Assembly: GCF_006345805.1 (NCBI RefSeq)
Contig: NC_042997.1
Coordinates: 171,926,001 to 171,990,000, forward strand
From: Octopus sinensis
Lineage: Eukaryota
DNA length: 64,000 nucleotides
Direction of reading: 5' to 3'
Shown here: in pieces, positions 5,745 through 47,125 of the stretch
How positions within the stretch are numbered: the stretch's first letter is position 1
How the letters are laid out: every line of letters starts with the position of its first letter
Notes under the pieces: model-generated
What the model was told of the DNA's origin: nothing
What the model saw: the letters and a program-made list of their open reading frames with translations, nothing else
Database searches by the model: none
Translations under genes and position numbers: made by a program

Positions 5745-5945
5745 TGACCTCGTGAGCACCGCCAACAATTTTTTTCCTCTGTCTTCCCTTCTCAGGATCT
5801 TTCCTTCTCCTTTGTTTCCAACGAAGAGCTCCGCTCGAAACGTTAAACCCTCCTTCCCTTTTTTCCTGAGTGTCCAATAATACTTTGTTTGTTCCACGTC
5901 CTCGTGTTGCTGTGTTTTTTTTGTGTTTTCTTGTTTGGATTAACT
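5745..5945 (+). mobile_element. Penelope/retrozyme-like repeat with degenerate hammerhead (5814-5848)
   Basis: gttt-CCAACGA-a-gagc tcc gctc-GAAA-cg-tt-aaac. Same family as the 46737-47125 dimer; flanked by (TA)n. Confidence 0.6.
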
Positions 5946-6179
5946 ATATATATATATATATATATACATGCGTATGCACACAGAGTGTTACATAACAATA
6001 TAAATCATACATATAAGAGTATCAACAATGTATACCATTAAAAGACTGTAATTGGAATTATATGAAACAATAATTACTGCTGATATATCGATAATGATAT
6101 GATGATAATTAGTACACTATTCATTATTCTCATATCAATTGATGATAACATTTTTCTTTAATATTCTTTGTTTCAGAAT

Positions 6180-6488
6180 CAAAGTTCACAGATTACTTGA
6201 TACGCGTACTCCACACTTATAAATACCCTCTTCATCTACTTGTTTTTCTTTAAGTTTCCTTCTCCTTGTGTTTGAGAAGAACAGTATCTTAGTTCAATGA
6301 CGCAAATTTCCTGTTTTAAAGTTATTGAAATTAAAACTTTCCATTAAAATTTCACGCTAATTTATGTTCCAAACACTAGATTAATAATGACTAAATTATT
6401 TTACAAAATTGTTCATTATTTTCGCAATTGCTTGAAACAAAAGCGGCGTATTTCAATTTCAACAGAAATATTGTAACAAAAGAGTTAA
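6180..6488 (+). mobile_element. Diverged piggyBac-like MITE
   Basis: Similar to 50809-51034 (aatttatgttcc..aacacta..taatgac..aa.ttattttac) and ends gtaacaaaagag-TTAA. Confidence 0.55.
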
Positions 6489-6829
6489 ATGTCCTCCAAA
6501 TGGAAGGAAATGATCATACAATGCTTTCATTGCAATCAATCAAACTGGGCCATATTTTGAACGGTTCTTCTTCCTTGATTTCCTCACTCAACAATCTGGA
6601 ATCCACTTTTCCTTCTTAAAGACTTTTGTTCGGAATAATCTTTATTTAACACACAATATTATTAAAGTCAGCAAAAACTTCTGTACCCTCCAATAAATCT
6701 TTCAATTCCTTGCTTTCCCTCTTTCTTTTCTTATCATTTTTCTTCACTAAATCATCTATCTTTTCCCCTCATTTTCATTCTCTCAATCTGCTCTCTCTTC
6801 CTTGTCTTCTCTTAATCCTATCCCTTCCC

Positions 6830-6872
6830 TCCTTTCTTTCTTTCTTCTTTCTTTCTTTCTTTCTTTCTTTTT

Positions 6873-6920
<48 letters not shown>

Positions 6921-6921
6921 T
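6830..6921. repeat. (CTTT)n microsatellite within a pyrimidine tract
   Basis: Direct reading. Confidence 0.95.
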
Positions 6922-7369
6922 GTTATTTCTGTCTTCCTTTCATCTCTCAATTATCTCCTCTCGTTATTCTTCATCTCTTGTCCCCTCTCCTTTCTCTCCC
7001 AAACAATTCTTCTCTTTGCTTTCTCTTAATCATCTCTGTCTCTCTAAATGATACGAAGTTGATAAACATCACACCCAATCTATCATCTACATCATCAATA
7101 CACTTCACAGTTCAATGGCTGTATAAGCACTAAAGGACAGCAATACAGAGCAGATATTCAGCAAGGCCAAATGATTTAACCCTCCATCAACTGAGAGAAA
7201 TTTGTTTGTCAAACTAATTATAGATGTTCATCAAAAGAATCATCACAGAAGATGTGGTTAGAGATGAAAGATACACTGCTATATCATACACATACATACA
7301 CACAATACATATATATTTATCAATATATATATTCATTAAAATATCCAAATACATAATTTATATAGTCAA

Positions 7370-7407
<38 letters not shown>

Positions 7408-7465
7408 TAGAAAAGTTTTAGAATAATATTCCCTCATATTATTATTATTAATATTATTATTATTA

Positions 7466-7527
<62 letters not shown>

Positions 7528-7591
7528 GCATACATGTATATATAAATATATACATATATTCATAAATGTATATCTATGTGTGTGTGTGTGA

Positions 7592-7637
<46 letters not shown>

Positions 7638-7675
7638 CTGTAAATATAATATGTGACAATTAATTGGTAGCCATG

Positions 7676-7734
7676 ATAAAACTCCGAGTTTCAGATGTCG
7701 AGGTGGAAACCCACACTGGCATCTCTTCAGTTAT
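7676..7734 (-). ncRNA. Type I hammerhead ribozyme-like motif
   Basis: Minus strand: AUAA-CUGAAGA-GAUG(CCAGUGUGGGUUUCCACCUCGA)CAUC-U-GAAA-CUCGGAG-UU-UUAU. Stems I, II and III can form; GUU triplet; one extra U before GAAA. Confidence 0.55.
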
Positions 7735-8063: not shown

Positions 8064-8121
<58 letters not shown>

Positions 8122-9102: not shown

Positions 9103-9145
<43 letters not shown>

Positions 9146-9179: not shown

Positions 9180-9370
9180 ATATTCGCCATGATAGATCGC
9201 TAGCCACTACACATTCTTTATTTTCTCTCCTTGCTTCTTTCTGTGTTCCTTTCTGTGGAAGAGCGTAGGCTCAAAACGTTAAAGACTTTTTCAATTCCCG
9301 AGCGTTATACTAATACATCTATTTGTCGTCTACACCACCTGTCTTTGTCTTTTGTTTTTTGTGTTCTCCT
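9180..9370 (+). mobile_element. Penelope-LTR-like repeat with variant hammerhead (family H3)
   Basis: cttt-CTGTGGA-a-gagc gtag gctc-aaaa-cg-tt-aaag. Other copies at 14000-14185(-), 29620-29830(-), 36665-36810(+), truncated at 5360-5450; flanked by (TA)n. Confidence 0.6.
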
Positions 9371-9544
9371 ATATATATATATATATAAACATATATATAT
9401 AGAGAGAGAGAGAGAAGGACAGAGAAGCAGAGAGGCAGAGACAGAGAGACAGACAGACAGATAGGTGGCTGGATTGATGGATCGATCAATAGATAGATCA
9501 ATGGGTCAATGGATTAACAGACCAGTCAAGAGACAGATGAAAAG

Positions 9545-9788: not shown

Positions 9789-10342
9789 ATATATAGATAT
9801 GTATGTATCAGACTCAATGTGTATACATTGTTTATAGGCCAGTTACTATGGTTATTCTCCTGAGATAGCATCTCTTATGGACTGGCTGTGTTACAACCAC
9901 GATAAATATCAAAGGGAGATAAAAAATGCCAGCTGTATTTCAGCCTCTTTGGGCCTTTTCAATGGCACATACTCACAGCCAGTCACATGCTTGGATCAGA
10001 ATTCCTAATCTCTATAGGAACAAGTGAATAATACTGATGATGTGAATGGCCAGCTGGTTGAATACTCTTGTCAATGGTGTCATCTCTATGAAAAAGCTGC
10101 AGTGTTCTATTGATGTTAGACAGCCTGTATCATTCTGTTGTCAAGAGCACAATAATGGTATGCTTTTTTTGCTTTAGAGCAGTTGTATACTGTCAACTTA
10201 ACATGACAGTCCCATAAAGGGAATCACACCACCGCTATTTAGCCCTAGGAAGCATCAACGCTTCCTGTCGGCCTTGACACATTTCCTGTGTCCTTATGTT
10301 TACAAGGGGGAGACAAGCACCCCCCTCCAGCTAAGCCTGCAG

Positions 10343-10382
10343 CCAGAGACATGTTTCTGGGTCTTGCTCATCATCAGTCTGG
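10343..10382 (-). ncRNA. Minimal type I hammerhead ribozyme
   Basis: CCAGA-CUGAUGA-UGAG(CAAGA)CCCA-GAAA-CAUG-UC-UCUGG: perfect stem I, canonical core, palindromic ACAUGU stem III, GUC cleavage triplet, one mismatch in stem II. Confidence 0.75.
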
Positions 10383-10697
10383 AGAAGCATGGCTTGTAGC
10401 TGGCTGCAGATACCCGTCTAGACTTTGTAAGCATATATAATTTCAGTGAAGTAAATTCACTGATCACAAAAAATTATAAATATTAAATTTCTAAATATCT
10501 CAGAGAGATATAAGCAGTGGTGGTACGATAGAGCAGTTGTATACTGTCAACTTAACGTGACAGTCCCATAAAGGGAATCACACCACTGCTATTTAGCCCT
10601 AGGAAGCATCAATGCTTCCTGTCGGCCTTGACACATTTTCTGTGTCCTTATGTTTACAAGGGGGAGACAAGCACCCCCCCTCCAGCTAAGCCTGCAG

Positions 10698-10737
10698 CCA
10701 GAGACATGTTTCTGTGTCTTACTTGTCATCAGTCTGG
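10698..10737 (-). ncRNA. Minimal type I hammerhead ribozyme, second copy (stem II degenerate)
   Basis: CCAGA-CUGAUGA-CAAGUAAGACACA-GAAA-CAUG-UC-UCUGG. Confidence 0.6.
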
Positions 10738-12167
10738 AGTAGCATGGCTTGCTAGCTGGCTGCAGATACCTGTCTAGAACTTGTAAGCATATATAATTTC
10801 AGTGAAGTAAATTCACTGATCTCAAAAAAAAAAAAAAATAGAAATATTAAATTTCTAAATATCTAGAAATATAAATATTTCTTTTTTTTTTTTCTTTTGC
10901 TTTGTTTTCTATATATTGCAAACAGGAGCGGACTCTTGCTGTCTCTCTAGCGGTTGGGCATTCGTGACTAGGAATGGGCAGAAATAGCCTGAAACTAAGG
11001 TGGTCTCACAATCCTGTTATCAGCTGGAGGATGGTAGAGATTTGCTCCCTTGCTTGCAATATATACAGGGTGCTGGCTGCACCTATAACCAGCTGGCAGA
11101 TGATCTGCCTGGGGTTAAAACAGTAGTAACATCAAACAGCCATATTGATGTGGCAATTTACTTTACTTGTTAGAACCCATTATTTGCTGCAATAAAAAAA
11201 TTAGGAAGAAAAGTTAGTATTGAGGAAAAGTTACTCAACAACATGCATAATTAATTCAAGCAACCTATGGTAATTAATTAAAAGAATTGTGTTAACATTT
11301 GCATTATTTTCAGTACAACCCTTGTATATTATGTGTGTGTTTGTGTGTGTGTAGGTGTGGCTGTGTGGTTAAGTAGTTTGCTTCCCAAACACATGGTTTT
11401 GGGTTCAGTCTCACTGTGTGGTACCATCTTCAGCAAGTGTTTTTTTACAATAGCCCTGGGCTAACTACAGCCTTATGAGTGGATTTGGTTGACAGAAACT
11501 GAAAGAAGTCTGTTGTATGTGTGTGTGTGTCTATGTGTGTGTGTGCATGTGTGCGTGTGTATTTGTGTGTTTGTGTGTGCATGTTTGTTTGTGTGTGTGT
11601 GTGAGTGTATGGTGCATGTGTACTTGTGTTTGTGTGTTTGCATATGGAGGGTGTATGTGTGTGTGTGTGTGTGTATGTGTGTGTGTATGGTGCATGTGTG
11701 TATATGTGTGTGTGTGTGTGTGCTTGTGTTTGTGCGTTTGCATATGGAGTGTGTATGTGTGTGTGCTTGTGTGTGTGTTGTGTGTGTGTGTGTGTGTGTA
11801 ATTCATTTACAGTATGCTTCAAAGACACATCAGGTCTTTGACAAATATTACTGTGCTTGGAAAGAGGTAACGTTTGATGGCAGGAAGGGTATCCAGCCAT
11901 AGAAAATCTACTTCAATAAACTCTATTCAACCTACGGATATTAAAATGATAACGACAATCACAATGAAGATAATGATGATATATATGTATATATTCATAT
12001 GTATATACATATATATATATATAAACATACATACATATGAATGAGTGATCCATCGACTCCCCTTGATCAATCAGTCTTCGTTACATGAAGTCAGCATAAC
12101 TGGTTTATTATTATTATTATTATTGTTGTTGTTGTTGTTGTTGTTGTTGTTATTATTATTATTGTTA

Positions 12168-13200: not shown

Positions 13201-14470
13201 TGACCAGCTGAAATCAGTTGGTGGTTCATATATTTGGTTGATAGACTTAATTTAACACCTGGGTTAACACCATGATCATCTTGAAATCATATGATCGCAA
13301 GGTTTGATATTACTGCACCGTATCTTACTGCAAGCATCTCAGTATCTTGCACAAGTGCCTGTCACCATAGACTCATATTGTGAGTGAAATTGGAAAAAGG
13401 AAAGTTGTGCAAATGTGTATCAAATGCACTGTTTCTATTCTTGAATTTCAGGACAGATTGTAAGCATTCAAACTGGTTCTCCAGTCAGAAGACATCTTTT
13501 CTCCTTTCTCACTGTAATTTTGGATGTCCTGAAAAATGTTTATTTTGGGGCACAAGTATGACTGAGTGATAAGAAGTTTGCATCCCAGCCACACAGTTTC
13601 AGGTTCAGTCCCACTATGTGGTATTTTGGGCAAGTGACTTCTACTATAGCCCTGGGATAATCAAAGCTCAAGTGCAGATGTATTTTGCTATAGCCTTGGG
13701 CTGACCAAAGCCTTGTGAGTGGATTCAGTAGAAAGAAAATTAAATACGTCTGGCGTGTAAAAAGCACCATTCAAGCGTGGTTGATACCAATATTGCCTGA
13801 CTGGCCCTCATGCCAGTGGCACGTAAAAAGTACCTATGACGTTCTTGAAGTGATTGACATTAGGAAGAGCATCCAGCTGTAGAAACCCTGTCAGATTAGA
13901 TTGGAGCCTGGTACAGCCTTCTGTCTTGCCAGTCCAATCCATGCCAGCATGGAAAGCAGATGTTTAACAACAAAGACGATGATAATGATATATATATATA
14001 GGGATAATTCACGAAAAAAACAAAAGATGAAGACAGGTGGAGTAGAAAACAAACAGATGTATTAGTATAATGCTCAGAAATTGAAAAAGTCTTTTATGTT
14101 TCGAGCCTATGCTCTTCTATGGAAAGAAACACAGAAAGAAACAAGGAGAGAAAAAAATGAAAAAATGTGTGTAGTGGCTACTGATATATATATATATAGT
14201 GTAATAAATAAAATATATGCATACATACATACATATATGTACGTACCTACATCTACATGTATATATACATGCATATATGAATATATATACGTGAGTACAG
14301 GACACCACAAATAGACGTAGAACTCAACGAGAAACGAAAACGTAAAAACAAGCATGGAACAGACATTATTTTACAACGCAAAACAGAGTACAAGACAAAC
14401 TACACAAGGAAAAATCCCCTTCATTAGCTGTCCCTAGTTCAACTCCAGCGTGTTTCGAAGGTGAGGACAG

Positions 14471-15141: not shown

Positions 15142-15322
15142 TTCTATGTATAAGAGATGAGGAATTATGTACATTATTTACATTATTTACATTCGACGTA
15201 TATTTGTCCTCATCTTGTTTGTTGTTAACACAACGTTTCGGCTGATATACCCTCCAGCCTTCTTCAGGTGTCTCGGGGAAATTTCGAACCTGGGTTCTCA
15301 TTCCTAAGGTATTTTTCGATGT
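15142..15322 (-). mobile_element. Penelope-LTR-like repeat with hammerhead (15227-15272)
   Basis: GACAC-CUGAAGA-A-GGCUG(GAGGGUAUAU)CAGCC-GAAA-CG-UU-GUGUU. The same repeat follows the GIY-YIG remnant, at 35449-35613. Confidence 0.7.
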
Positions 15323-15324
15323 TA

Positions 15325-15684
15325 TAAAATTTTAGGAAAATAAAAATGAGAAATAAGTGGAAATTTTACCGGTGAATGTGTTACATTATAAGGCACAAAA
15401 AGAAAATGACTCTCCCCAGACACAACAGAATATGGTAGTTATATTTTTTTGTTAACATGATAGGTTAGATAGGATGATGTCTATATTACAATATTAAAAT
15501 AACCAATAATATGTTGTGCATGTAGAGTAATATTATGATCAAGAAATTAGCATTAGCTTATCTCAGTCTTTCTTGTGGAACCCCTAGGAAGCTTTTGTGG
15601 AACCCCTAGGAAGCTTTTGTGGAACCCCTAGGAAGCTTTTGTGGAACCCTAGGGTTTCGGGGCAACCCCAGCTGAGAAACACTG
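15325..15684 (+). mobile_element. hAT/Charlie-like terminus with 22 bp tandem repeat
   Basis: Ends ...gctgagaaacactg, the reverse complement of a CAGTGTTTCTCA terminus. (ttgtggaacccctaggaagctt) repeated about 3.5 times at 15573-15652. Confidence 0.6.
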
Positions 15685-20330: not shown

Positions 20331-21210
20331 TATAACATCTATAAAATTTCTGACACCCAGAAATGCAGAACGTGGAAACTGTAACCCATTTGGTAAATGG
20401 ATGTGAAAGCCTTGCACAAAAAGAATACAAGCAACGCCATGATAAAGTTTGTTTGTACCTTCAATGGCTTTTATTTTGTAAATGCTAGTATGAAGTAACA
20501 AAGAATTGGTATGAGCAGGTGCCTAGTAATGTAATGCATGACGAAGGGAAAGCAATGATATTCTGAGATTACAATTTTCTAATTGATAGAGTAATTGCGC
20601 ATCGCTGCCTGAATGTGGTTGTGTAGAACAAGAGAGACAAATGCTGTCAAATCATTGACATAACCATGCCAAATGACATGAATATCTTTAATAAAGTGGT
20701 TTTAAAAAATCACCAAGTACTTCAAACTGAAAGTGGAATTAGAATGACAATTTGGAATACAAGAGGGTAATGAAAAGGTGATATCAGCTGTAATTGGGGT
20801 CATTAGGATCAAAACCCTTGAAACTTCAAGACTTCTTAAAGCAGTTGGGAATACTATTCAAGATTGGTGTCATACAAAAATAAGCCTTTTTAAGTACTGC
20901 ACACATTTTAAGGAAAGTATTACCTGTCTGAGGTTCTTGATGTGTCTTGACAGAAGATTAAATACTCTGGTGCATTTTGCATAATAATTCTTTATACTAT
21001 CCTTTTATTTGTTTCAGTCATTTGACTGTGGCCATGCTGGAGCACCAACTTTAGTTGAAGAAATCGACCCCAGGACTCATTCTTTGTAAGTCTAGCACTT
21101 ATTCTATCGGTCTCTTCTGCTAAGTTATGGGAATGTAAACACATCAGCATCGGTTGTCAAGCAATGGTGGGGGACAAACACAGGCACACAAACATATAAA
21201 TATATATATA

Positions 21211-29602: not shown

Positions 29603-29923
29603 TTATGTACATATATATATAACGGGAAGCTTTATGAAAATAGACAAAAGACGAAGGCAGGTGGAAAACAAACAAACAATTGTATTAGTATGGCGCTCAG
29701 GAAATATAAATAAAATAAGTCTTTAACGTTTCGAGCCTACGCTCTTCAACAGAAAGATACACAGAGAGAAAAAAAACACAGAAAGAAGGAGAGAAAAAAA
29801 AAATGCGTGCAGTAACTAACGAATCAACATGGCGATCTGATTTCGGCCAGAAGTCAAAGATCAAACATGAGACGCGAGAGCGAAATTAGGGGAGATAATA
29901 GGGTTGAATGACCAGCTCCAACA

Positions 29924-30302
29924 TAAGGGTGTGTGTGTGTGTGTATGAGAGAGTATTAGTGCGTATGAGAGGTCTGGACGTGTGTATGTATAGGGTTGGT
30001 GTATGTATTAGTATGTATTAGTATGTATAAGGGTGTGTGTGTGTGTGTTGTATGAGAGAGTATTAGTGCATATGAGAGGTCTGGACGTGTGTATGTATAG
30101 AGTTGGTGTATGTATTAGTATGTATTAGTATGTATTAGTATGTATTAGTACGTATTAGTATGTATAAGGGTGTGTGTGTGTGTGTGTATGAGAGAGTATT
30201 AGTGCGTATGAGAGGTCTGGACGTGTGTATGTATAGGGTTGGTGTATGTATTAGTATGTATTAGTATGTATTAGTATGTATTGGTTGGTGTATGTATTAG
30301 TA
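29924..30302. repeat. Compound minisatellite, 3 units with (TG)n and (GTATTAGTAT)n
   Basis: taaggg(tg)n-atgagagagtattagtgc.tatgagaggtctggacgtgtgtatgtatag occurs three times. Confidence 0.85.
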
Positions 30303-30803
30303 TGGCACATCATATATGATGTGATGTGTAAAGTCGTGTGGTGTAGTGTGGAGAGAGGAGAAGGGGGGAGTGGAGGGGGGAGAAGAGGGGGAGGAGGGGA
30401 GGGGGAATATATATATATATATGTATATAAACGGTTAGCTGAGTTAGAGATTAAAATAACCATCTAAGGGATAGAAGTATCCATTACACTACCAGTACAT
30501 TACCTATGCTTAACCATGAGTATACATATGCAAGCATATTATGCTCATAAATTATAGGTAAAGACAAGGATAAATATAGGTTTATCAAGAATTAATATTT
30601 AAAGAAAACAGAAAATGGAGAAGTATTGAAGAACAGCGATTGGCTTACATCAATTATTATTTATTAATTCAATACAAATAGACTGCATCCTATCTAATAG
30701 CTGTTTCTGCTTCCAATGTTGTATGATATTGCCATTGATATTCTATAAATATTTATCATATTTGATAATAAAACTGATCTGAAACATGAGGCTTCATCAG
30801 AGT

Positions 30804-30900: not shown

Positions 30901-30907
30901 ATATATA

Positions 30908-31332
30908 TAGGTTAAATAAAATGAGACAATAGAACCAAGGCAATGTGAAATTTCTAGGACATTGTATAATGAGAATGGTAGTCTTACAGCTGTTTCAGGG
31001 ATATAAAAGATACCCCACCATCAGATACGATATCAGAGAGTTAAATAGAAGGAAATTGTAGAGTTATTTATACCTGCACACTATCCATTTGTAATAACAA
31101 AATATGAACTCCTATCAGAACTTATATACTTTGGACAAGAAGCCTTTTTACCCAGTCTTTACTACACATTCCTTGCATAATAGAACAGCAAGTTTATCAT
31201 CCAACATATATCTTTATTTTTATTCTCATATTTCCCTTTATACCTCCTATATTGAACTCTACTATTTCCTTCTATTTAACTCTCTCATATCATCCCTGAA
31301 ACAGCTTTTGTTGTCTCATTTTATTTAATCTA
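30908..31332. mobile_element. Inverted-repeat element with degenerate hammerhead (30981-31028, minus)
   Basis: Termini ttaaataaaatgagacaa / ttgtctcattttatttaa; inner repeat gagagttaaatagaaggaaat / atttccttctatttaactctc. Minus strand CUGAUGG-UGGGGUAU(CUUUU)AUAUCCCU-GAAA-CAGCUG-UA-AGAC. Confidence 0.6.
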
Positions 31333-31464
31333 TACATGCTCACACATGACCCACATTAGACTCCTCACTCTTACTATTATCGAACCAGGAGTCTAACAGC
31401 AGTCCTTCCATAGCACTTACATAGCTTTACCTGCCTTTTGGATCTTCTGGATACCAAAACCTCT

Positions 31465-34825: not shown

Positions 34826-35339
34826 TAATGAAACTGATAAACTGTCCACAGTCTGTCTACCCAATGTGAAAGGCCTCTCCAAAAAGATACAAAAGATATG
34901 TGGTTCATATGACATCAGGACAGTATTCAAGAGTAATACAATACTTCGCAAATATTTCCTTTGAGTAAAACCACCAATAGAAGAGAATATGACCAGGAAC
35001 TGCGTGTACCGCATCCCACGCAGCTGTGGTAGGTTATACAAAGGTGACAAAATAAGGGTAGAGGAACATCGCAAAGCTGTGACATGGGGAGATATTGATA
35101 AATCGGGTATAGCTGATTATGTATGGAAAAATATAGACCACGGCATCCTGTGGGATGAAGTTAAAATAATAGACAGAGAACACCACTGGAAAAAACAAAA
35201 ACTAAAAGAAGCAGCACATCTGCTAGGACACAACAACCTCCTAAGCAGACCGAATGCAGATATGAGCAGCATATGGGAACCGGTATTAAGGAAGGATAGG
35301 AGAATATTAGATTTATCAGCCCTAAAATTCACTCCATAA
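34826..35339 (+). pseudogene. Penelope-like element GIY-YIG endonuclease remnant
   Basis: VCLPNVKGLSKKIQKI...IRTVFKSNTILRKY*, then CVYRIPRSCGRLYKG...RVEEH...SGIADYVW...HGILWDEVKIIDREHHWKKQKLKEAAH; linker and GIY-YIG layout of Penelope elements. Confidence 0.85.
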
Positions 35340-35381
35340 TTGCCCACAGGCATATGGCGTAGTAGTGACTAGGCAGTGACT

Positions 35382-35445
<64 letters not shown>

Positions 35446-35448
35446 CAG

Positions 35449-35613
35449 CATCGAAAAATACCTTAGGAATGAGAACCCAGGTTCGAAATTTCCCAAAGAC
35501 ACCTGATGAAGGCTAGAGGGTATATAACAACAAAGAAGATGAGGACAAATATTCGTCAAATGTAAATAATGCAAATAATGTACATAATTCTTCATCTCTT
35601 TAAATATAGAACT
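35449..35613 (+). mobile_element. Penelope-LTR-like repeat, hammerhead partly deleted
   Basis: Same as 15142-15322 but lacks cagccgaaacgttgtgt. Confidence 0.7.
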
Positions 35614-36462
35614 GTATCATTTTAATATATTGCATTGTGTTTTGAATTTTACCACAAACAATATATTTTACATACAGACACACAGACACACACACACACA
35701 CACACAAACATATATTCATATATTCATACATAATTGTTATTGCTCCATCTTCACAGATGATTGCTTCCTCATTGTCAATAGCATTTCTGACTTCATATCT
35801 ATGACTTCTCAGATGACTATTCATTCTTGTTGCAGATTTTCCTGTTTTGGAGCATAGATGACAGACAAAAGTTGTAACTTACTGTGCCCTTCCACTGGTT
35901 AAGTCTGCACATGTCACCACTTTTCCATCACCATAGGATTTTCATTAAATGGAATGATGAATAAAGTCACCATAAAAGAGATATTTGTATATCATTGGAT
36001 TATAGTGATAGACACTTGTTCAAGTGAACCACTGTTTTAATCTCTGTGATTAGTTCCTAGTGATAGGCTGAAGTGAGATGACCAGTCATCACATGAAACA
36101 GCAGGTTTTACATCAGTGGCCTTTTCCTGGAAGGGTGCTGTGACAACAGCTAGGGGTCCCTCACACCCAGTAATTTTACTGCATGCCCTGACACAAACCA
36201 AAGATATCTTTGTGTCCTCATAGTCAGATGGACTGTCATTACATGTGCTAGTAAATCCATAGCTGGACCTTGACAGGTGCTACCACTTGTGGCCAGAGTA
36301 GCCCTCAGAACAATAATAGCTAAGAGATGATTTCACACTCCTTAAAACCTGGAACTCCTAAAACAGAGCCCTACCTCAAGATGCAGTTTAAAGCTATACC
36401 TAGGACATGCATGGATACATACATACATACATACATGCATGCATACGTACATACATACATAT

Positions 36463-36627: not shown

Positions 36628-36681
36628 CCCTCTATACACAATCATACAAACCCCTTTATATATATATTTTTTTTCTGTGTA

Positions 36682-36719
36682 TCTTTCTGTCGAAGAGCGT
36701 AGGCTCGAAACGTAAAAGA
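36682..36719 (+). ncRNA. Variant hammerhead motif (A6 to U)
   Basis: UCUUU-CUGUCGA-A-GAGC(GUAG)GCUC-GAAA-CG-UA-AAAGA. Confidence 0.5.
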
Positions 36720-36807
36720 CTTTTTCTGTTCCTGAGCGCTATACCAATACATTTGTTTGTTTGTACACCACCTGCCTTCGTCTTTTGTTTATTTTCATAA
36801 ACTTTCC

Positions 36808-36848
<41 letters not shown>

Positions 36849-37708: not shown

Positions 37709-37937
37709 GGCGGCGAGCTGGCAGAGCCATTAGCAAGCTGGGCGAAATGCTTAGTGGTATTTCGTCTGTCACTACATTCAAAGTTCAAATTCTGCCGAAG
37801 TTGACTTTGCCTTTCATCCTTTCGGGGTTGATTAAATAAGTACCAGTTACGCACTGGGTCGATATAATCGACTTAATCTGTTTGTCTGTCCTTGATTGTC
37901 CTCTCTGTGTTTAGCCCCTTGTGGGTAGTAAAGAAAT
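37709..37937 (+). mobile_element. tRNA SINE family A with 21 bp target-site duplication
   Basis: atgtattatttcttggaaaga at 37688-37708 and 37938-37958. Confidence 0.9.
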
Positions 37938-38393
37938 ATGTATTATTTCTTGGAAAGACTGAGGGATCAGAGGCAAAGTGTTTAACCATTCCTTTCCTAA
38001 CTCCAGATATTCTACAAGTAATTAATGTAATCTTACTTACTATGTACCTAAGCATTTTACTCTCTGTGGAGCATAGACTATCAACAACTGTTCCCCACTG
38101 TTCTTGACTCTTGGCTGACATTTCTACTTCCTTTCAGCTAGATCCCTGCTTTTTCAACTCTGCCCCAGTATCCTGCCCATATGTTTTCCTGGGGGAAGGC
38201 CTTCCACTTCTAGGACTTGATTGAATTTTCATTGATGCCTTTGTAATTTTGCTTTTTTCCAGGAAGTGGTGTCAATCCCTATGCAAACCCATTTTTTACT
38301 CCTGAGAAGAAGTGGTCCATGTTAGTCTGGCCTCTGTCTTTTTAACTGTCCAGCATGGGATGGTGGAGTGGGGTCTTACTTGGTGTTTATTAA

Positions 38394-38779
38394 GTGGTGT
38401 CAAAAAGTTCCTGGACTAGTTATGTTTAACAAAAAAATAACTTATTTACCTAAATTTTAATATCATCTCCTTTGAAATAGTCGTCTTGCACAGCAACAGT
38501 TGTAGTGTTCCTACCATTTTTGGAATCCAGCCTGGAAGTCATTTTCCCTAAGTGGACAGTTGAAAAGACTGAGGCCAGACTAACATGGACCACTTCTTCC
38601 CAGGAGTAAAAAATGGGTTTACATAGGGATCAACTACCTGGAAAAAAGCAAAATTACAAAGGCATCAATGAAAATTCAACCAAGCATGAAGGTCACTGCT
38701 AGTTCTCACTGCAGATGCAGCTGTGTGTTGCCATCTGTTGGTGCACCTCAGAACTAGTTCAGGACCATTTTGATATCAC
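38394..38779. mobile_element. Internally deleted mariner element holding captured flanking DNA
   Basis: Termini gtggtgtcaaaaagttcctggactagtt / aactagttcaggaccattttgatatcac; shares cagcctggaagtcattttcc with the 3020-3480 mariner. Confidence 0.7.
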
Positions 38780-38879
38780 ATCACATACTCTGCTGGCTTA
38801 ATTCTCAGGGTCACTGAAGCACTCAAACCACCACATCATAACAAGGGCTGGACCTTGTGGTAGTCTGTTTCCTTAAATG

Positions 38880-40280
38880 TTTTTGGTGAGAAGACTTCGA
38901 TTTTGTGCTGCAATCAAGAATATTTCAGTCTCAGCTTTACATATTTTTTACATATTTTTTTGTATATCTATTTTCATTCTGTTTATTTTTTTCAGGTATT
39001 GGACACATGGTAACTTGTTTTTACAATTACTTGTGATGGCATACTGCAACTTCACTTTTAACCTTTTTACAATTTCAGTGGTTATTTCTTAATTTCTTTT
39101 TCAAAACAATCTGTCGTTTCAGTTTTTGCTTAGTATTTTTGATGTCCTTTAAAGCAGAACAGTCTTTTTGTTTTTTGTATCCTTTCTTTTTCGCAGTTTG
39201 TATGGTTTTATTGAATATTTTTTACTTAATATATTTGTCTTATAGTGGGTATTTTCTAGTTTCTGGTTGCATAAGGCCTATACCACCTTGTAATTATGAT
39301 AAATAATCTTTCAATGTCAGATTTTGGGAGAGACAGTTATGATTTTCCTTGTTTTCCTGTCTAGACTAGCTAGTTCGTTTAGCATCCAGTTCTGAATTAT
39401 AACTATAACTTATTACTCAGACATCTAGAGCATTAATGCTTATGTTATCTCTGTTTTAAATATTAATCTAATATGTATACAATATGCCTTCTTAATCTTT
39501 TCTATCATTTATATCGTTCACTGTCTAATAAAATAGGTTCTGAGCATTCGTTAGTCCTTGTTAGGTATAATTCTCTAATCCCTGTTTCTTTAATTAGTAT
39601 GAAATTAGTGTTGGTATTTTTTCTCTCTTCAAAGTGACCTTGATGCATTTTTCTCGTGTCAATCTGACATAATTTTTCATAATAAAGCCATATAGTGTTT
39701 GCAACAATAACTCTAGTTATTTAACATTTGCTGCCTACAATTCGAGGTCATCCATATACAAAAAATGATTTACTGTCCTTCCTCACGTTGTATCTGAGTA
39801 CAGACTAGTTTAACTTTTCGGTTAAAGGTGTAACTACTGGGTAGAAAAGAAATAGAGAGAGGGAGCCCTCTTGGAATATTCCATTTCTAAATGGGATGGA
39901 GGTTAGGTTTTATAATTCCTACATTTTGCAAGTATCTATACAATTATTTGCTATATATTTGATGTACCTACTTATTATTGCTGCTTACTCATGGCTAGTA
40001 ACCCCTGGATCCATTAATGGGAACACTGATAAAAGCTTTCTGGTAGTCAATTCATTCCACGCCATGCGCAGATTTTTCATTCTCCTTCATCCATCTTCAG
40101 TTTTGGCAGTGATGATCAGTAATTGATCTTCACATCTATATAAGCTTTTGCAGCATCCATTCTACACTTCAGGAAACAACAAATTCTTTTTCTAAATATT
40201 TATTCTATGTGATTTTATGGTAGCTAAGGCTTTGTAAGCTTTAAAGAATTCCTTGGAAGTCAGGCTACTTATCTGTAGTA
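38880..40280 (-). mobile_element. R4/Dong-type reverse transcriptase remnant
   Basis: Minus strand HFLYMDDLEL (about 39740-39770) and NGIFQEGSLS (about 39855-39890); heavily decayed. Confidence 0.7.
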
Positions 40281-40871
40281 CAGAAATTAACTAAGCTCAG
40301 GCCACTGGTAGAACACTTAGGACCAGATACAAACAAGGTCACCATGCTCTTCCATCAGACAATTTTGATACATTAATAAACAGAATTGCATGCTCAACCC
40401 AGGATACTCTAATTTTGGTACCAAGACAGGAAGAACAATAACAAGTATGCTGCTTCCTTCTGAGAATGGACCTTTGCACCTGAAATACAGAGGTTTTTGT
40501 AAAACTTTCTGCATTGTTGGAAACTTTCTTATTTTCCTTTTCTACTTCTGTTCACAATGCTTCAAGCAAACTACAATGCTCCTATATACAAAATTAAATT
40601 AAATTTAGCTCTTGAAGCCAAGATGAACTAAATACAGGATGAAATTATGGAATACATTGAACAATGAGGTCTATCAACAAGAAAAAGCGACTGGAGATTA
40701 TTGTGTGAAGTACAATGCTAACAAGAAAGAGAACTGGTAGTTTGACATTAGCCTTTGAACAAAGAAAGATGGAATGGAAAACAAAGTAACTTGTAGCAGG
40801 TCAGAAGTCAAAATTAAAGAAGCAGGCCCATTTAGTGGAATAGAATCCAGGGAAACCATGTAAAGGTATTA

Positions 40872-41091
40872 TGGCAGAAACATTAGCACACTGGGCGAAA
40901 TACTTAGCGGTGTTTCATCTGCCGCTACGTTCTGAGTTCAAATTCCGCCGAGGTCGACTTTGCCTTTCATCCTTTCGGGGTCGATAAATTAAGTACCAGT
41001 TATGCACTGGGGTCGATGTAATCGACTTAATCCGTTTGTCTGTCCTTGTTTGTCCTCTCTGTGTTTAGCTCCTTGTGGGTAGTAAAGAAAT
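40872..41091 (+). mobile_element. tRNA SINE family A
   Basis: Family A body; flanked by the direct repeat aggtatt. Confidence 0.85.
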
Positions 41092-42041
41092 AGGTATTGT
41101 GACAAGGTTAAGAACTGAACAGAGAAGGGGAAGAAGGAGGCTACAGCAAAAAAGAAAAGACAGGAGAGAGAAAGAAAGGTGGAGAGAGAGGGGGAGAGAG
41201 AAGACAAAGCAAGTAGAAATGGTTACTGAGAAATACAGTAATGATTTTTCTATTTGATGAAGATTATCAAAATGAAGGAAAATTAATTAAGCGTGGACTA
41301 CAGGTAAAACATATATGACAAGATATAAGAAGGTTACTATGCTCTTTCATCAGCTGTTGAGTGCATGTCAAGGCAATTTCAGCACATAAATCAACAGATC
41401 TACACACATATCCCAGCACAGCACACCAGGGTTTTGGTGTTGACAGGAAAGCAACAAGTATACAAAATTATACAAAAAATTAGCTCTTAAGATTTAGATA
41501 AACTAAATGCAAAATGATGTTACAAGACATGTTAAACAGTGGGGGGTTTCTTAACAAGAAAAAGAAAAAATATAGCCGCAAACTGGAGACGATTGTGCAA
41601 GGTGTAAGGCAGATCTTTGTGGTTATTGTCACTGCATGTCAAATTCTTTAAAAAAATTTTTTAATGTATCACATAGATGTAATTTTTGATGCTGAATCTG
41701 AATTTGTTATTGATTTATTCCAGAAAAATTTTGTGGAAATGTTACAGGTGTTCAAAGTTTCAGAATTTTCAGCCAATCAGAAAACAGAGCATTCACTGCC
41801 TCCTCCATTATCTGTCACAGGAGCAAGAGGGGTAGGAGTACCAGCATGTAAAACATTAAACTAGCTACAGTAAACAGTGAAAAACATTAAAAGATTCATG
41901 AACAAATGAAATATGTAAAAGCTACGAGCAAACCAACAGAAGTTGCAAGAAATAACAGTCAAAACATTGCTTAAAGCAGACATAAGTTTAAAAACTCAAG
42001 AATGAAAGTTTGCAATACACTCTAGGATTTTATAAAATAAA

Positions 42042-42439
42042 CTAGCAGTATCGCCCGGCGTTGCTCGGGTTTGTAAGGGAAATAACTATATAAGCATTTT
42101 TAGAGAGTTATAGCCAAAAAATAGCAAAACAATGCATTAAAAATGGAAAAAAAATTATGGTAAAGTTTTTTTTAAATCGTTGACTCATCGTAGACATTTT
42201 TAGAGAGTTACTTCCCTTATATAATAGCGAAAAAATGCATTCAAATGGAAAAAAATTATGGTAAATTTTTTTAAAAATCGTAGACTCATCGTAGATGCGT
42301 GCTAATACCCAGAAGGGCTCGATATGAATCACAACTATAAGATACCCGGTTTTGGTTAAACTGCACCGCAAAATGTGGGAGTAGTTAGGAATCTAAATCG
42401 TAGGAGACAGACGCACAACTTCACTTTTATATATAAAGA
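42042..42439 (-). mobile_element. Non-autonomous Helitron, second copy
   Basis: A|TCTTTATATATAAAAG ... CCCGAGCAACGCCGGG-cgatactg-CTAG|T, with an internal ~110 bp duplication. Confidence 0.85.
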
Positions 42440-42879
42440 TTACGTTTCCCATATCTCTTCTCCGCATAAATTCACAAAAATAAGAGTCAACCATGGAACG
42501 ATGTGTCCCACACTAGCGTTTGTTTCCATGCTTTAAAGATGCCCAGGTACTCTCAATTTGTTGATTACACTCAGTTTGGTAGTTGCACTCCTTGTGCGCA
42601 TGTACAGCATCTTTGGTTACTATAGAAATAGAGTTCTTTACAATCAGCTATGGAACACGTGGTGCTTCTTTGCTTAGTATGCTAACAGAACTTCACGGTG
42701 ATGTGTAAAATACTTGCTTCTGATTGGCTAAAATACCTGAATTTTGCAAATTTTAAAGGCTAATAACTTTTTAATTATGAATTTATAGGTAAAATGAATT
42801 TCATTTTCATAATTAGTATTCAAAACTTAATACTTATACCAAGGATATATGCAGAGATTCAATTGTGTTCAGTTGTATT

Positions 42880-43160
42880 ATTTAAGAGAGAACCTTGTAC
42901 TGGATATAGGCAGCTCTAGCAATGATATTTTTAAAACTGTGTAGAAGAATAGAAGAATTTTGAGTCCTGGTATAGCTTTTATGGCTGGTTCATGTTGTTC
43001 TTTATCATAGCCAGTTTTCCCAATTATTATTGGTACTATTTTCACCTTTAAACCCGCACATCCTGCTTATTCCAATTTCAAGATCTTTTTACTTTGACAG
43101 TTTCTCCACCTTCTTCCGGATGATGTTTTGTTCAGAAGGGATTGAGATAATTATTGGTTG
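42880..43160 (-). mobile_element. R4/Dong RLE-domain remnant
   Basis: Minus strand KDLEIG...KVKIVPIIIG-like segment. Confidence 0.5.
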
Positions 43161-43469
43161 TAGTTGTATTAAATTATGAAATAACCAACAACAGTTAATT
43201 TTTATCAAGATAACTTCAATGAAAATGTAGCAACTTTTTATACTTCCTAGCTAAATACCAGTGGCCAATTTCTGACAAAAACAAAAACAAAAAAAAAACA
43301 CAAAGGGTTTGATTTTTAATTTTTTTCATTTTCTTTTCCTTCATATTTTAATTAGCTTCTCTGTTAAATGTATTACATCCATCAAGAGTTGTTTCAATGG
43401 CATCTAATCAATAGCTTGAAAGAGGAGCATATTTTATAAATTTTCTTTCTTAATATCTAAAGATCAGAA

Positions 43470-43833
43470 CTCTGTTTCAAAACATCTGAAGTCCCTTGCT
43501 ACAAAACCCTTTTATGATATCAAAACACTTCACTATTTCAAAATAACTGAAAGTCCCTAGTTACAAATCTTTGTCACTATTTCAAAATGGCCTTAACTTC
43601 CTGACTACAGAACTCCATCACTAAATCAAAATGCTAAAAATCTTTCTACACTTCATCAAAATACATCAAGTCCCTGGTTACAAATCACTCCTTTTTATTA
43701 AAAATACTCCAGATCCCTGAGTATAAAACCTCTTGCATGTATCAAAACAGCCTAAAGTCCATAGATTATAAAAATCCTTTTTTTTTATATGAAAATAATC
43801 TAACATATTTGGTTACAAAATCCCTTCACTATA
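43470..43833. repeat. Degenerate ~45 bp minisatellite, about 8 units
   Basis: Recurring cactatttcaaaa...aagtccct.gttacaaa. Confidence 0.6.
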
Positions 43834-43837
43834 TTAA

Positions 43838-44063
43838 CCCTTTGAGCCCTGACCTGAACCAACATCAAAACAAGCCACATTCAACTCAGAAAGGCAGTGG
43901 ACACGTTTTAGCATTTTATAGTCGCAGGGTGAATGAGCAAGCTGATTGAATAAAAATAAATCATCGTACTTTAGTGCAGATGCACTCAAACAGCAAGAGG
44001 GGTGCTACGGTATAGAGAAAAATAAGCAATCCACTGGTAAACTTGTGTTATGAGCTCAAAGAG
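43838..44063. mobile_element. piggyBac-like MITE
   Basis: TTAA-CCCTTTGAGC ... GCTCAAAGAG-TAAA. Confidence 0.6.
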
Positions 44064-44277
44064 TAAAAACATCTAAAACTACAAGTCACTCTTTTAAATA
44101 ATACATTTAAAAATCTCCTTATTCTGTATAAAATATTAAAAAACCCTCATAAATCTCAAAAGCTAAAGTCTCCACTATGTCATGGTCTTACTGGGTACTA
44201 AATTTTGATTACTTTGTGAAGTGGATAATTTTTAATCTGAGTAGGAATTATCCACCCTAAGTGCATGTTTCTGCTGC

Positions 44278-44692
44278 AGGTGGCGAGCAGGCAGAAACAT
44301 TAGCATGCTGGGAGAAATCCTTAGTGGTATTTCGTCTGCCACTACGTTCTGAGTTCAGATTCTGCCGGGGTTGACTTTGCCTTTCATCTTTCGAGGTCAA
44401 TTAAATAAGTACCAGTTATGCACCGGGGTCGATGTAATCGACTTAATCCATTTGTCTGTCCTTGTTTGTCCCCCTGTGTTTAACCCCTTGTGGGTAGTAA
44501 AGAAATAGGTATTTTGTCTGCCGCTGCATTCTGAGTTCAAATTCCGCCGAGGTCGACTTTGCCTTTCATCCTTTCAGGGTCAATTAAATATGTACCAGCT
44601 ACACACTGGGGTCGATGTAATCGACTTAATTCCTTTGTCTGTCCTTGTTTGTCCCCTCTATGTTTAGCCCCTTGTGGGCAATAAAGAAATAA
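44278..44692 (+). mobile_element. SINE family A head-to-tail dimer
   Basis: A full copy is followed by a second starting at ggtattttgtctgccgc; same layout at 50100-50500. Confidence 0.85.
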
Positions 44693-45417
44693 TTAAAAAA
44701 ATGTTATAGAAGTTTTTCAATTGGCTTGAGGAATCTTTTGAGAAAATTTTGTTTTATATGATTCTGTTTAATTCAAGATTGATGATGAAAAGAGAAGATT
44801 ATCAGAAAATGAATGATTAAAAAGCAGTAAGTTAAGTCTAATAATCTCTGTCTAATGTGATATACTCAACTTTCTTTTGTGGCATAGCTACACCAAGTCA
44901 CTCGATGTTAAATTCATGCTTTTGGTAGCCAATGCAGGCAGTGGGCATTCATAATAACCATTTCAAATTTTGGCACGAGGCCAGCAATTTCAGGGGGAAG
45001 GGATTAGTCGGTTACATCAACCCCAGTGTTTGACTGGTATTTTATTTTATCAAACCCAACAGAATGAAAGGTAAAGTTGACCTCAGCAGAGTTTGAACTC
45101 AGATCATAAAGAGCTGGAAAAAATGCCGTTAAGCATTATGTTTGGCATGTTAATAGTTCTGTCAGCTTTCTGCCTTAATGAATAATGGCTTTAAGTTTTA
45201 GCACAAGGCCAGCAATTTTTCAGTGCCAAGTGATTAGTTGATTTCATGAACCTGAGTACTTGGCTGATACTTTTTATTTTATCAACTCCAATAGAATATA
45301 AGTTAAAGTGGACCTCAAAAAAGTAAACAGCCAGAAGAAATGCCATTTACCATTTTGTTTGACAAGCTAATGATTCTACCAGCTTGCCACCTTGGAATTT
45401 ATAATAATAAAATAATG

Positions 45418-45489
<72 letters not shown>

Positions 45490-45493
<4 letters not shown>

Positions 45494-45893
45494 CTGAGCA
45501 AATATAAAGATCTTGAAATAGAAATTAGCAAAATGTGGAACCTAAAGACTAAAACAATACCTGTTGTCATAGGTGCCCTGGGAATGATAGCAAAAGGGGC
45601 TGATTGCTACCTAGCTCAGATACCAGGAAACCCCAAAATGGCAGAAATTCAAAAGATAGTGCTCATGGGAACTGCTCATATCCTATGCAAAATGCTTTCT
45701 ATGTAATCTCAAGTTTTAAAACAAACAATTTTCTTATGGTGTCTTAAACATTCACTAGTACAACACTAAGTACAAAATACCAAATATATGGCACCCTAGG
45801 CATAACACCAACATGAACTTCCAACTTGTCTCTTGAGGTCTCTGGGTGAGACTTGGAGCCAACTTGTACAAATGTAAAGCAAAAGTCAAACAG
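45490..45893 (+). mobile_element. Dong/R4-type 3' end inserted in (TAA)n
   Basis: KLSKYKDLEIEISKMWNLKTKTIPVVIGALGMIAKG...IQKIVLMGTAHIL...* plus 3' UTR; (AAT)n on both sides. Confidence 0.85.
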
Positions 45894-46693
45894 AATAATA
45901 ATAATAATAATAATAATAATATTCCACCATGGAATTTATAATAATAATATTTTCTACCATAGACACAGAAATAATAATGCCAGGAAAACAACAACAGAAT
46001 TAGGAGTTGATACTCACTGAAAACTCTTTTGAACTCAGCTAACAACAACATCCAACCTACAAATGTTAGTGATTCACATTTTAACACAAGCTCACAGAAA
46101 TGCAAGCTGCCGATATTGAAGGAGTAATTAGAAGCCAATGGTTTTATACCCATATCAGATAAGCTAATGGTTTTATACCCATATCAGATAAATGTGTTCC
46201 TATGACTGCATACTTAACATAATTAATGTAATGAAGCAAAAAGATTCTTAAACAACTGAAATTATACCAGTAATGTAAATGAAAACAAAATGATATTAGT
46301 ATTAATGACAATTGTTTCTAAAGAAAGGCAAAGGAGAGAATGTTTAAATTCAAATTGATTATATATGAAATGGATACATACAATAACAATTGTGTCTAAT
46401 TTCTGATAAGTATAGTGACATTTCTGAACATGTTTTAGTCTTATTATATACACACACAAATAAAGGTTACAAGCCTTATTGAGGGACAGCAAAATCCTAT
46501 GAAAGCACTGGTTAGTTACCTATACAAAGAATGTTGAACAATTACAGTTAATACTCAACTTCAAGGTAACTATATAAACTGTGGTTTATATATATATATA
46601 TTTATTTATTATAATAAGGTAAGAAAATAGAGAGATAATTTCTAAATTATTCTTTATTAATCATCTCTCTAATTTCTTATCTTATTATAATAT

Positions 46694-46736
<43 letters not shown>

Positions 46737-46740
<4 letters not shown>

Positions 46741-46899
46741 ATCCAAACATGAAAACACAACAACACGAGGATGTGGAACAAGTATAGTGGTATTGGATGC
46801 TCAGGAAAGAAGGAAAGAAGGAGGGTTTAACGTTTCGAGCGGAGCTCTTCGTCAGAATCATAGGTAAAGGAAAGATCCAAAGAAGGGAAGACGGAGGAA

Positions 46900-46938
<39 letters not shown>

Positions 46939-47125
46939 ATCCAAACATGAAAACACAACAACACGAGGATGTGGAACAAGTATAGTGGTATTGGATGCTC
47001 AGGAAAGAAGGAAAGAAGGAGGGTTTAACGTTTCGAGCGGAGCTCTTCGTCAGAATCATAGAGTAGAAGATCATAGGTAAAGGAAAGATCCAAAGAAGGG
47101 AAGACGGAGGAAAAAATATATATAT
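46737..47125 (-). mobile_element. Tandem dimer (198 bp period) of a hammerhead-bearing repeat
   Basis: Two near-identical units separated by (TA)n. Each has CUGACGA-A-GAGC(UCC)GCUC-GAAA-CG-UU (46825-46859 and 47023-47057). Confidence 0.75.

What the first reader, a model, noticed from the sequence alone, without database searches (positions are those of the whole stretch)
5814..47057. At least six dissimilar repeat contexts carry hammerhead-like cores
Seen: CUGANGA...GAAA...UH motifs with foldable stems, or decayed versions, at 5814-5848(+), 7676-7734(-), 9249-9284(+), 9927-9967(-), 10343-10382(-), 10698-10737(-), 14090-14127(-), 15227-15272(-), 29720-29757(-), 30981-31028(-), 36682-36719(+), 46825-46859(-) and 47023-47057(-). 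Stems I and II differ between families, but stem III is nearly always palindromic or close to it (AACGUU, ACAUGU, ACAGCUGU, ACUCGGAGU). Most sit in or near (TA)n. Inference: the genome holds a large, diverse set of dimer-dependent ribozyme elements, probably mobilised by Penelope enzymes. If this window is intronic, they could cut or cross-pair nascent RNA.
Basis: partly seen in the sequence, partly recalled or inferred. Interest (0 to 1): 0.75.

Follow-up and report, generated by a model that had tools for sequence, protein, structure and literature searches.

The report
Odd hammerheads in Penelope retrotransposon ends
These self-cutting-RNA motifs are the tail ends of several families of a known jumping gene (Penelope-like elements), mostly decayed; two twists stand out: the largest family counted has a fixed change in the cutting core, and another has a tRNA-like head that likely drives short copies.

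Summary
All 13 motifs are present and far above chance (genome-wide 21,320 matches against 1,344 control). They form seven repeat families with palindromic stem III, matching the minimal, dimer-type hammerheads described in Penelope-like elements (PLEs) in 2014. Families B and D are tied directly to PLE reading frames, A more weakly; C, E, F and G are not linked. No host exon was found and RNA reads run through the family D cut site, so cutting of nascent RNA is unsupported.

Two features were not found in print. (1) Family B (over 13,600 exact copies; Neptune-type, ending in (TA)n) has the core CUGU-N-GA: U6 in 30 of 34 flank-picked copies, while positions 7 and 17 vary between subfamilies as in a working hammerhead. 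Family A mostly has U4C. (2) Family D's tail reads: stop codon, tRNA-like A/B-box head, (AAT)n, hammerhead; 27 of 30 copies start at that head, as expected of a polymerase III SINE-like unit moved by Penelope. Cleavage and the promoter are untested.

The parts
5740..5943 (+). Family A 3' end (likely Neptune-type PLE), hammerhead 5814-5848, core CCAACGA (U4C lineage plus G5A decay), ends in (TA)n
7676..7734 (-). Family E hammerhead, canonical core, long stem II, stem III ACUC-N-GAGU; element limits not mapped, no partner found
9184..9384 (+). Family B 3' end, hammerhead 9249-9284, CUGUGGA core, G12A decay
9820..10006 (-). Family F (old, about 70-80% identical copies), hammerhead 9927-9967, U3-A8 type core UUGAAAA, consensus stem III AUGCAU, decayed here
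10175..10874 (-). Family C, two head-to-tail units 355 nt apart, hammerheads 10343-10382 and 10698-10737, stem III ACAUGU
13988..14180 (-). Family B 3' end, hammerhead 14090-14127, core decayed
15142..15325 (-). Family D body (Penelope/Poseidon-type tail), intact hammerhead 15227-15272; this copy is truncated short of the tRNA-like head
29611..30405 (-). Family B copy with long CA- and CT-rich 3' untranslated region, intact U6 hammerhead 29720-29757; upstream limit approximate
30903..31351 (-). Family G with an inverted piece at its 5' side, hammerhead 30981-31028, A9G decay, stem III ACAGCUGU
34828..35614 (+).
36667..36821 (+). Family B 3' end, intact U6 hammerhead 36682-36719, ends in (TA)n
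46738..47119 (-). Family A (U4 subfamily), two tandem units of 198 nt joined by (TA)n, hammerheads 46825-46859 and 47023-47057, stem I mismatched in both
5366..5464 (+). Family B tail only, truncated just 3' of the hammerhead

Best explanation
The motifs are minimal type I hammerhead sequences in the terminal repeats of several Penelope-like retrotransposon families, predicted to fold only as dimers and likely carried along uncut when the element is copied. Shown: families B and D sit downstream of PLE reading frames on the same strand, and every sampled copy of A, B and D runs on past the cut site to a fixed 3' end. Inferred: the PLE protein nicks AT-rich DNA ((TA)n for the Neptune-type A and B), starts reverse transcription inside the RNA about 85-110 nt past the hammerhead, and usually stops early, leaving short tails that then decay. 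Inferred: because insertion does not need cleavage, whole lineages tolerate weakened cores (A6U in B, U4C in most of A) while selection still keeps the fold; I take these as slow, protein-assisted ribozymes or protein-binding folds rather than fast cutters. Inferred: in D a tRNA-derived A/B-box promoter inside the terminal repeat sets the RNA's 5' end, giving SINE-like copies of about 270 nt plus (AAT)n. C, E, F and G are likely ends or non-autonomous offshoots of other PLEs not yet found.
For: D: tRNA-like head directly after the endonuclease stop in 25 of 25 protein-picked loci, D body further on in about 20 of 25 read by eye; upstream frame has RVT_1 and atlas neighbours with HTH_animal and, in a minority of members, GIY-YIG. 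B: GIY-YIG frame with CX2-5CxxC linker upstream in 4 of 30 pattern-picked loci and in L236, L048, L271, L272, L287. A: frame fragment upstream in 1 of 30 (L297). Copies continue past the cut site in 90 of 90 (loose probes; also read). (TA)n 3' ends: B 26 of 30, A 51 of 60, D 2 of 30. Palindrome kept by double change in C: ACUAGU 18, ACAUGU 8, of 26 parsed. B core: U6 in 30 of 34 flank-picked copies, position 7 A11/U10/G7/C6, position 17 A23/U8/C3/G0; 13,604 exact matches against 140 with A6 and 87 with G17. A: 6,876 C4 against 3,060 U4, 4 label changes on a flank tree against 19.7 shuffled. D 5' ends: 27 of 30 within -21..+11 of the head, 3 run into the frame; 18 of 30 have an inverted piece there; 1,924 against 193 genome matches inside versus across the boundary. 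Head aligns to the genome's tRNA-Arg(TCT), 0 of 5000 shuffles as high. Literature: PMC4209133, PMC11167929.
Against: No PLE frame found within 1.5 kb for C, F, G with the three protein probes used; E not fetched. The link of A rests on one broken fragment. No cleavage was measured. An older B subfamily (L236, L048) shares a stem II mismatch and AUGU in stem III, a sign of relaxed selection; loop II of B is also conserved, so protein binding alone could explain conservation. Some older B-like copies have A6 (L271, L287, L416). ARAGORN and Rfam do not call the D head a tRNA and only three tRNA types were compared. The 5' pile-up coincides with a short palindrome that could itself stop reverse transcription. 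No full-length D element was found. RNA-seq shows no pile-up of ends at the head.
Confidence: 0.85

Rival explanations
1. Some families (C, G, perhaps E and F) are free non-LTR retrozymes: short non-coding tandem units cut by paired hammerheads, circularised and reinserted by a PLE in trans.
For: C occurs as 355-nt tandem units with canonical core; no frame near C, F, G loci; such elements derive from PLE ends (bioRxiv 10.64898/2026.07.22.740005; PMC7229834 passages).
Against: A, B and D link to frames and are not permuted at the cut site; C and G show variable 5' lengths and inverted pieces typical of PLE insertions; stem III is the minimal PLE type.
Confidence: 0.3
2. The U6 hammerhead of family B is catalytically dead; the sequence is kept only as a stem-loop that the PLE protein binds.
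For: Changes at A6 lower activity strongly (PMC3088659 section 8); catalytic mutants insert normally in vitro (PMC11167929); U6 is predicted to pair the core with the ACGU palindrome in the monomer (P 0.74 against 0.11 for natural A6 copies in a 38-nt fold; 0.32 against 0.00 with flanks); the youngest B subfamilies amplify with U6.
Against: Positions 7 and 17, the free positions of a hammerhead, are the ones that differ between subfamilies, and no G17 subfamily was seen; U6 is kept across frames only 77-80% identical in DNA; a natural A6C ribozyme keeps low activity.
Confidence: 0.45
3. The 5' pile-up of D copies comes from reverse transcriptase stalling or folding back at the GCCCAYGGGC palindrome, and the tRNA-like head is an old SINE relic without promoter function.
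For: 18 of 30 copies invert at this point; the head no longer folds as a tRNA; RNA-seq shows both read directions and no start peak.
Against: Ends spread from -21 to +11, many inside or 3' of the palindrome; A and B boxes are intact in the consensus; the drop across the boundary is about tenfold.
Confidence: 0.3
4. The motifs act on the host: they cut or cross-pair nascent intronic RNA and so regulate genes.
For: D RNA is abundant in both read directions (8,140 of 12.9 million reads in one run); the ACGU palindrome is shared by A, B and D, so cross-pairing is possible in principle.
Against: No host exon found (a weak test); no strand bias; most copies decayed; depth unchanged across the cut site (1,652/1,719 before and 1,599/1,629 after); a double hammerhead also needs matching stem I arms and lies 6-23 kcal/mol above the best cofold in all 5 tested.
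Confidence: 0.07

Closest known systems
Minimal hammerheads of PLE terminal repeats (Cervera and de la Pena 2014, PMC4209133; Lunse et al., seen only as cited in PMC6765202)
   Same: Type I layout, extra nucleotide between 9 and 10.1, G10.1-C11.1, palindromic stem III, many families per genome, mostly single truncated copies, U3-A8 variant (family F).
   Different: Lineage-wide A6U (B) and U4C (A) cores at thousands of copies are not in the parts of that paper read, nor in the supplement passages seen.
Poseidon element of Anolis (Frangieh et al. 2024, PMC11167929)
   Same: Copies run past the cut site to a fixed 3' end; no RNA ends at the cut site; AT-rich targets.
   Different: That ribozyme has a canonical C3-G8 core; no tRNA-like head is described in the parts read.
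Neptune/Nematis-type PLEs (PMC8557442)
   Same: RT then GIY-YIG with a CX2-5CxxC linker, bias for microsatellite targets (A, B).
   Different: Clade assigned by motif only, no tree; very long CA/CT-rich 3' regions; changed hammerhead core.
Schistosoma SINE-like hammerhead repeats (Sm-alpha, as reviewed in PMC6765202)
   Same: Polymerase III-type promoter followed by a hammerhead.
   Different: In D the promoter-like head lies inside the tail of an autonomous PLE, the ribozyme is the minimal type, and copies start at the head with PLE-style inversions instead of forming tandem arrays.
Non-LTR retrozymes (PMC7229834; bioRxiv 10.64898/2026.07.22.740005)
   Same: Short non-coding hammerhead repeats related to PLE ends; tandem units in C and one A locus.
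   Different: A, B and D are mostly single, 5'-variable and continuous with coding PLEs; circular RNA not tested.

Membership tests
PLE minimal hammerhead | Stems I and II around CUGANGA / GAAA / UH | tested here: met
   Consensus of C, D, E, G and the U4 part of A; F has the known U3-A8 form
PLE minimal hammerhead | Canonical core in families B and A-C4 | tested here: not met
   U6 in 30 of 34 B copies; C4 in 6,876 of 9,936 exact A matches
PLE minimal hammerhead | Extra nucleotide between A9 and G10.1 | tested here: met
   A, B, D; C and G have a mismatch or extra pair at this place, E a bulge on the 3' side, F none
PLE minimal hammerhead | Palindromic stem III / loop 3 | tested here: met
   ACGU, ACUAGU/ACAUGU, ACAGCUGU, AUGCAU, ACUC-N-GAGU
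PLE minimal hammerhead | Located in the terminal repeat next to an RT plus GIY-YIG frame | tested here: met
   D, B; A weak; not found for C, F, G; E not tested
PLE minimal hammerhead | Self-cleavage as a dimer | not testable with these tools
   Needs in vitro assay; RNA-seq shows no ends at the D cut site
Neptune/Nematis-type PLE (A, B) | CX2-5CxxC linker before a C-terminal GIY-YIG | tested here: met
   CSRPRCHTC / CRTC motifs in L216, L202; no tree built
Penelope/Poseidon-type PLE (D) | RT then GIY-YIG without the linker motif | tested here: met
   Frames of L151, L156; no tree built, N-terminus not found
tRNA-derived SINE (D short copies) | tRNA-related head with A and B boxes | tested here: met
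   Colinear match to tRNA-Arg(TCT), 0 of 5000 shuffles; not called by ARAGORN or Rfam
tRNA-derived SINE (D short copies) | Copies begin at the head | tested here: met
   27 of 30; 1,924 against 193
tRNA-derived SINE (D short copies) | Transcription by polymerase III | tested here: inconclusive
   No T4 run in 6 of 6 complete head-to-tail copies or in 1,155 nt of frame consensus (P 0.13); RNA-seq unsuited
tRNA-derived SINE (D short copies) | 3' tail shared with, and mobilised by, a LINE | tested here: not met
   The whole unit is the 3' region of a PLE and shows PLE-type 5' inversions
tRNA-derived SINE (D short copies) | Target-site duplications | not tested
   not examined
Non-LTR retrozyme | Non-coding tandem units, each with a hammerhead | tested here: inconclusive
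   Fits C and the A pair at 46.8-47.1 kb; not B or D
Non-LTR retrozyme | Circular RNA joined at the cut site | not testable with these tools

The most novel reading that the evidence does not exclude
One Penelope lineage has captured a tRNA-derived polymerase III promoter inside its terminal repeat and spawns tRNA-headed, hammerhead-bearing SINEs that are mobilised by Penelope rather than by a LINE; and a Neptune lineage with more than 20,000 copies runs on an active hammerhead with the core CUGU-N-GA, switched on by dimer formation and the element's own protein.
Probability: 0.3. Interest if true: 0.72.

Novelty: new variant of a known kind. Interest (0 to 1): 0.45.

Why it matters
What PLE hammerheads are for is open: they are conserved, yet cleavage is dispensable for insertion in vitro (PMC11167929). 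Families A and B are a natural experiment, since young, very abundant lineages carry core changes expected to cut activity while keeping the signature of the fold; assaying U6 against A6 and C4 against U4 dimers with and without protein would test cleavage against binding directly. Family D would be a PLE with a polymerase III-type promoter and would widen SINE partners beyond LINEs. Practically, standard descriptors and Rfam miss these motifs: U6 matches (23,047) equal all canonical ACGU-type matches (21,320) in this genome.

Tried and rejected
Rfam scan of the window: no hammerhead, only microsatellite-driven miRNA hits. A strict descriptor without the extra nucleotide finds 1 site. A generic pattern with a 6-nt stem III was badly designed and gave mixed, unhelpful matches. 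A young Neptune-type family (L255, L401) was tested as the partner of A or B: no hammerhead within 1.5 kb downstream in the loci shown and none continuous within up to 7 kb in 20 loci; the B copy in L408 is a separate insertion. An alternative register restoring a canonical core in B was checked by eye and breaks stems I and II. The idea that U4C and A6U both lock an inactive hairpin holds for B only, not A. U4 copies of A are not scattered CpG decay: they cluster. B copies with A6 mostly share flanks with U6 subfamilies and look like single back-changes. T4 depletion in D is not significant. Host gene: Pfam on 150 of 152 non-repeat frames in 164 kb found only transposon domains. No holder run is on record as RNA; three raw RNA runs of one study, by species label, were laid on D only, so A and B RNA ends are untested. 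PDB search with the Neptune protein: none. Earlier findings: none. The Lunse paper could not be read and may hold such variants; one supplement file of PMC4209133 was not searchable; repeat libraries such as Repbase were not available.
Full report
Setting. The window is G000:C1:171926001-171990000 in a 2.72-Gb genome, 36% GC and rich in microsatellites; about 63% of it matches other fetched loci. The animal group is not established; an octopus-like cephalopod is a recalled guess and comes from no call.

Observation. All 13 strings are present. Rfam finds no hammerhead. A strict descriptor finds 1 site, and 2 when one extra nucleotide after A9 is allowed, against 0 in 15 shuffles. A descriptor that accepts core variants and does not score stem III finds 3 window sites, all palindromic in stem III, against 0-1 non-palindromic hits in 10 shuffles; in 500 kb of unselected DNA it finds 10 (6 palindromic) against 1-7 (0-1 palindromic) in 4 shuffles. 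Genome-wide counts against reversed patterns: CTGANGA..GAAACGTH 21,320 against 1,344; CTGTNGA..GAAACGTH 23,047 against 1,439; CTGANGA..GAAACTCNGAGTH 7,071 against 4 (about a third of the 100 listed being family E, most of the rest another family). Six of 13 window sites have a canonical core, two the intact B core, five are decayed in the core. Eight of 13 lie within 100 nt of (TA)5+ (random 17% within 150 nt), namely A, B and G.

Families and pairing. Stem III is a palindrome in each consensus: ACGU (A, B, D), ACUAGU or ACAUGU (C; 18 and 8 of 26 parsed, of 31 copies), ACAGCUGU (G, 30 copies), AUGCAU (F, 18 copies, core UUGAAAA in 8 of 14 parsed), ACUC-N-GAGU with a free middle base (E). A four-base ACGU cannot close a hairpin, so pairing must be between two copies. 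Energy evaluation shows the double hammerhead can be drawn for intact copies but is never the best cofold in 5 of 5.

Link to PLEs. The window holds a broken frame at 34965-35339 whose relatives are numerous (4,340 candidates). In 25 of 25 such loci the stop is followed by a tRNA-like stretch, and in about 20 (by eye) by (AAT)n and the family D hammerhead region. Longer copies carry RT motifs and atlas neighbours with HTH_animal and GIY-YIG. For B, 4 of 30 pattern-picked loci and five others reach a GIY-YIG frame with a CX2-5CxxC linker, the mark of Neptune/Nematis elements according to passages of PMC8557442. For A, one of 30 loci shows a broken frame upstream of a CA-rich region shared by several copies. 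No frame was seen near C, F or G with three probes. All 90 tested copies of A, B and D continue past the cut site; A and B end in (TA)n in 77 of 90, D in 2 of 30.

Core changes. B: 13,604 exact matches with two free core positions (99 of the first 100 have U6), only 140 with A6. G17 occurs 87 times genome-wide. U6 is found beside frames only 77-80% identical in DNA, though that older subfamily has a stem II mismatch and AUGU. A: C4 6,876, U4 3,060; on a flank-only tree of 58 of 60 copies the label changes 4 times against 19.7 shuffled, and the shortest branches carry C4 (midpoint root only). PMC3088659 (section 8 and passages) reports A6C with low activity and U4C as a weakened viroid variant; the term A6U occurs 0 times there and in PMC7151607, and a search for it listed two papers on other RNAs, not read.

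The D head. The consensus head has intact A and B boxes and aligns colinearly with the genome's tRNA-Arg(TCT) (score 52.5, best of 5000 shuffles 40) and less well with tRNA-Lys; tRNA-Phe is not significant. ARAGORN and Rfam do not call it. Of 30 copies picked by a pattern inside the head, 27 begin within -21..+11 of its start and 3 run at least 198 nt into the frame; of 44 head hits in 50 hammerhead-picked loci, 25 begin at -18..+5, 8 further up and 11 inside the head. Genome-wide a 34-mer inside the head matches 1,924 times and one across the boundary 193 times (the patterns differ in degeneracy). 18 of 30 have an inverted piece joined there. I infer an RNA that starts at the head, either a free short transcript or the upstream repeat of a tandem element. 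Searches for a tRNA-headed or Penelope-dependent SINE found nothing matching by listing.

RNA. Three raw RNA-seq runs of one study, chosen by species label, carry D in both read directions with no place where many molecules begin or end and even depth across the cut site. Library strandedness and size selection are unknown, so this says little about short transcripts. No host exon was found.

Mechanism. Shown: anatomy, copy numbers, links, end positions. From PMC11167929 (passages and second part of the main text): a Poseidon protein nicks AT-rich DNA, starts reverse transcription inside its RNA, does not need hammerhead cleavage, and activates the ribozyme. Applied here by inference, this explains fixed 3' ends past the cut site, variable 5' ends, decay, and tolerance of weak cores. 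My odds: PLE origin 0.85 overall (about 0.95 for B and D); U6 weakly active with protein or dimer about 0.5, dead about 0.45; D head a working promoter about 0.65.

Prior knowledge. PMC4209133 (parts 1-2 of 4 read, plus supplement passages) describes exactly this class, including the extra nucleotide, palindromes, many families, U3-A8 and low activity. The 2026 preprint (parts 1-3 of 5) derives non-LTR retrozymes from PLE ends. PMC6765202 (passages) covers dimers and the schistosome polymerase III elements. PMC13282606 (passages) lists active Penelope-like families in an octopus without mention of ribozymes. The Lunse paper and repeat libraries were not seen and may reduce novelty.

Verdict. 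The finding is real and the broad reading is known. The lineage-wide core changes and the tRNA-like head make it a new variant of a known kind and give a direct test of what these ribozymes do. Interest 0.45.

Noticed in passing
window 21200-23710 (+): RTE-like LINE, 600-aa frame with RVT_1 and a second 235-aa piece.
   Followed up: partly
L401:1034-3361, L402, L403 (G000 C15, C8, C10): A young Neptune-type family (14,624 candidates, 94-96% protein identity, frames up to 776 aa) whose 3' region is a long TG/CA microsatellite-like tract with no hammerhead found within several kb.
   Followed up: partly
G000, matches listed: A very abundant further family with a tiny stem II and stem III ACUCAGAGU, often as head-to-head pairs 20-60 nt apart.
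   Followed up: no
G000:C1:257510-400170 and others: A hammerhead family in arrays with about 558-nt spacing, a good candidate for a true tandem retrozyme.
   Followed up: no
L138, L144, L332: Another repeat sits in the (AAT)n tract of family D and replaces its hammerhead part, so the tract acts as a target or junction for a second element.
   Followed up: no
L226/L298, L048, L293, L228: A and B copies lie head to tail a few hundred bases apart, apparently by insertion into each other's (TA)n ends; this places ACGU palindromes of different families on one transcript.
   Followed up: partly
L149: A D copy with its frame lies just upstream of what looks like a host exon bounded by AG and GT, in sense orientation (by eye).
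   Followed up: no
window 37719-50308 and 2728-59809: Several dispersed SINE-like families of 140-200 nt with 5-7 copies each.
   Followed up: no
L166:5063-6029, L161:2703-2945: piggyBac-like transposase pieces (DDE_Tnp_1_7) and a DUF7083 piece upstream of the window.
   Followed up: no
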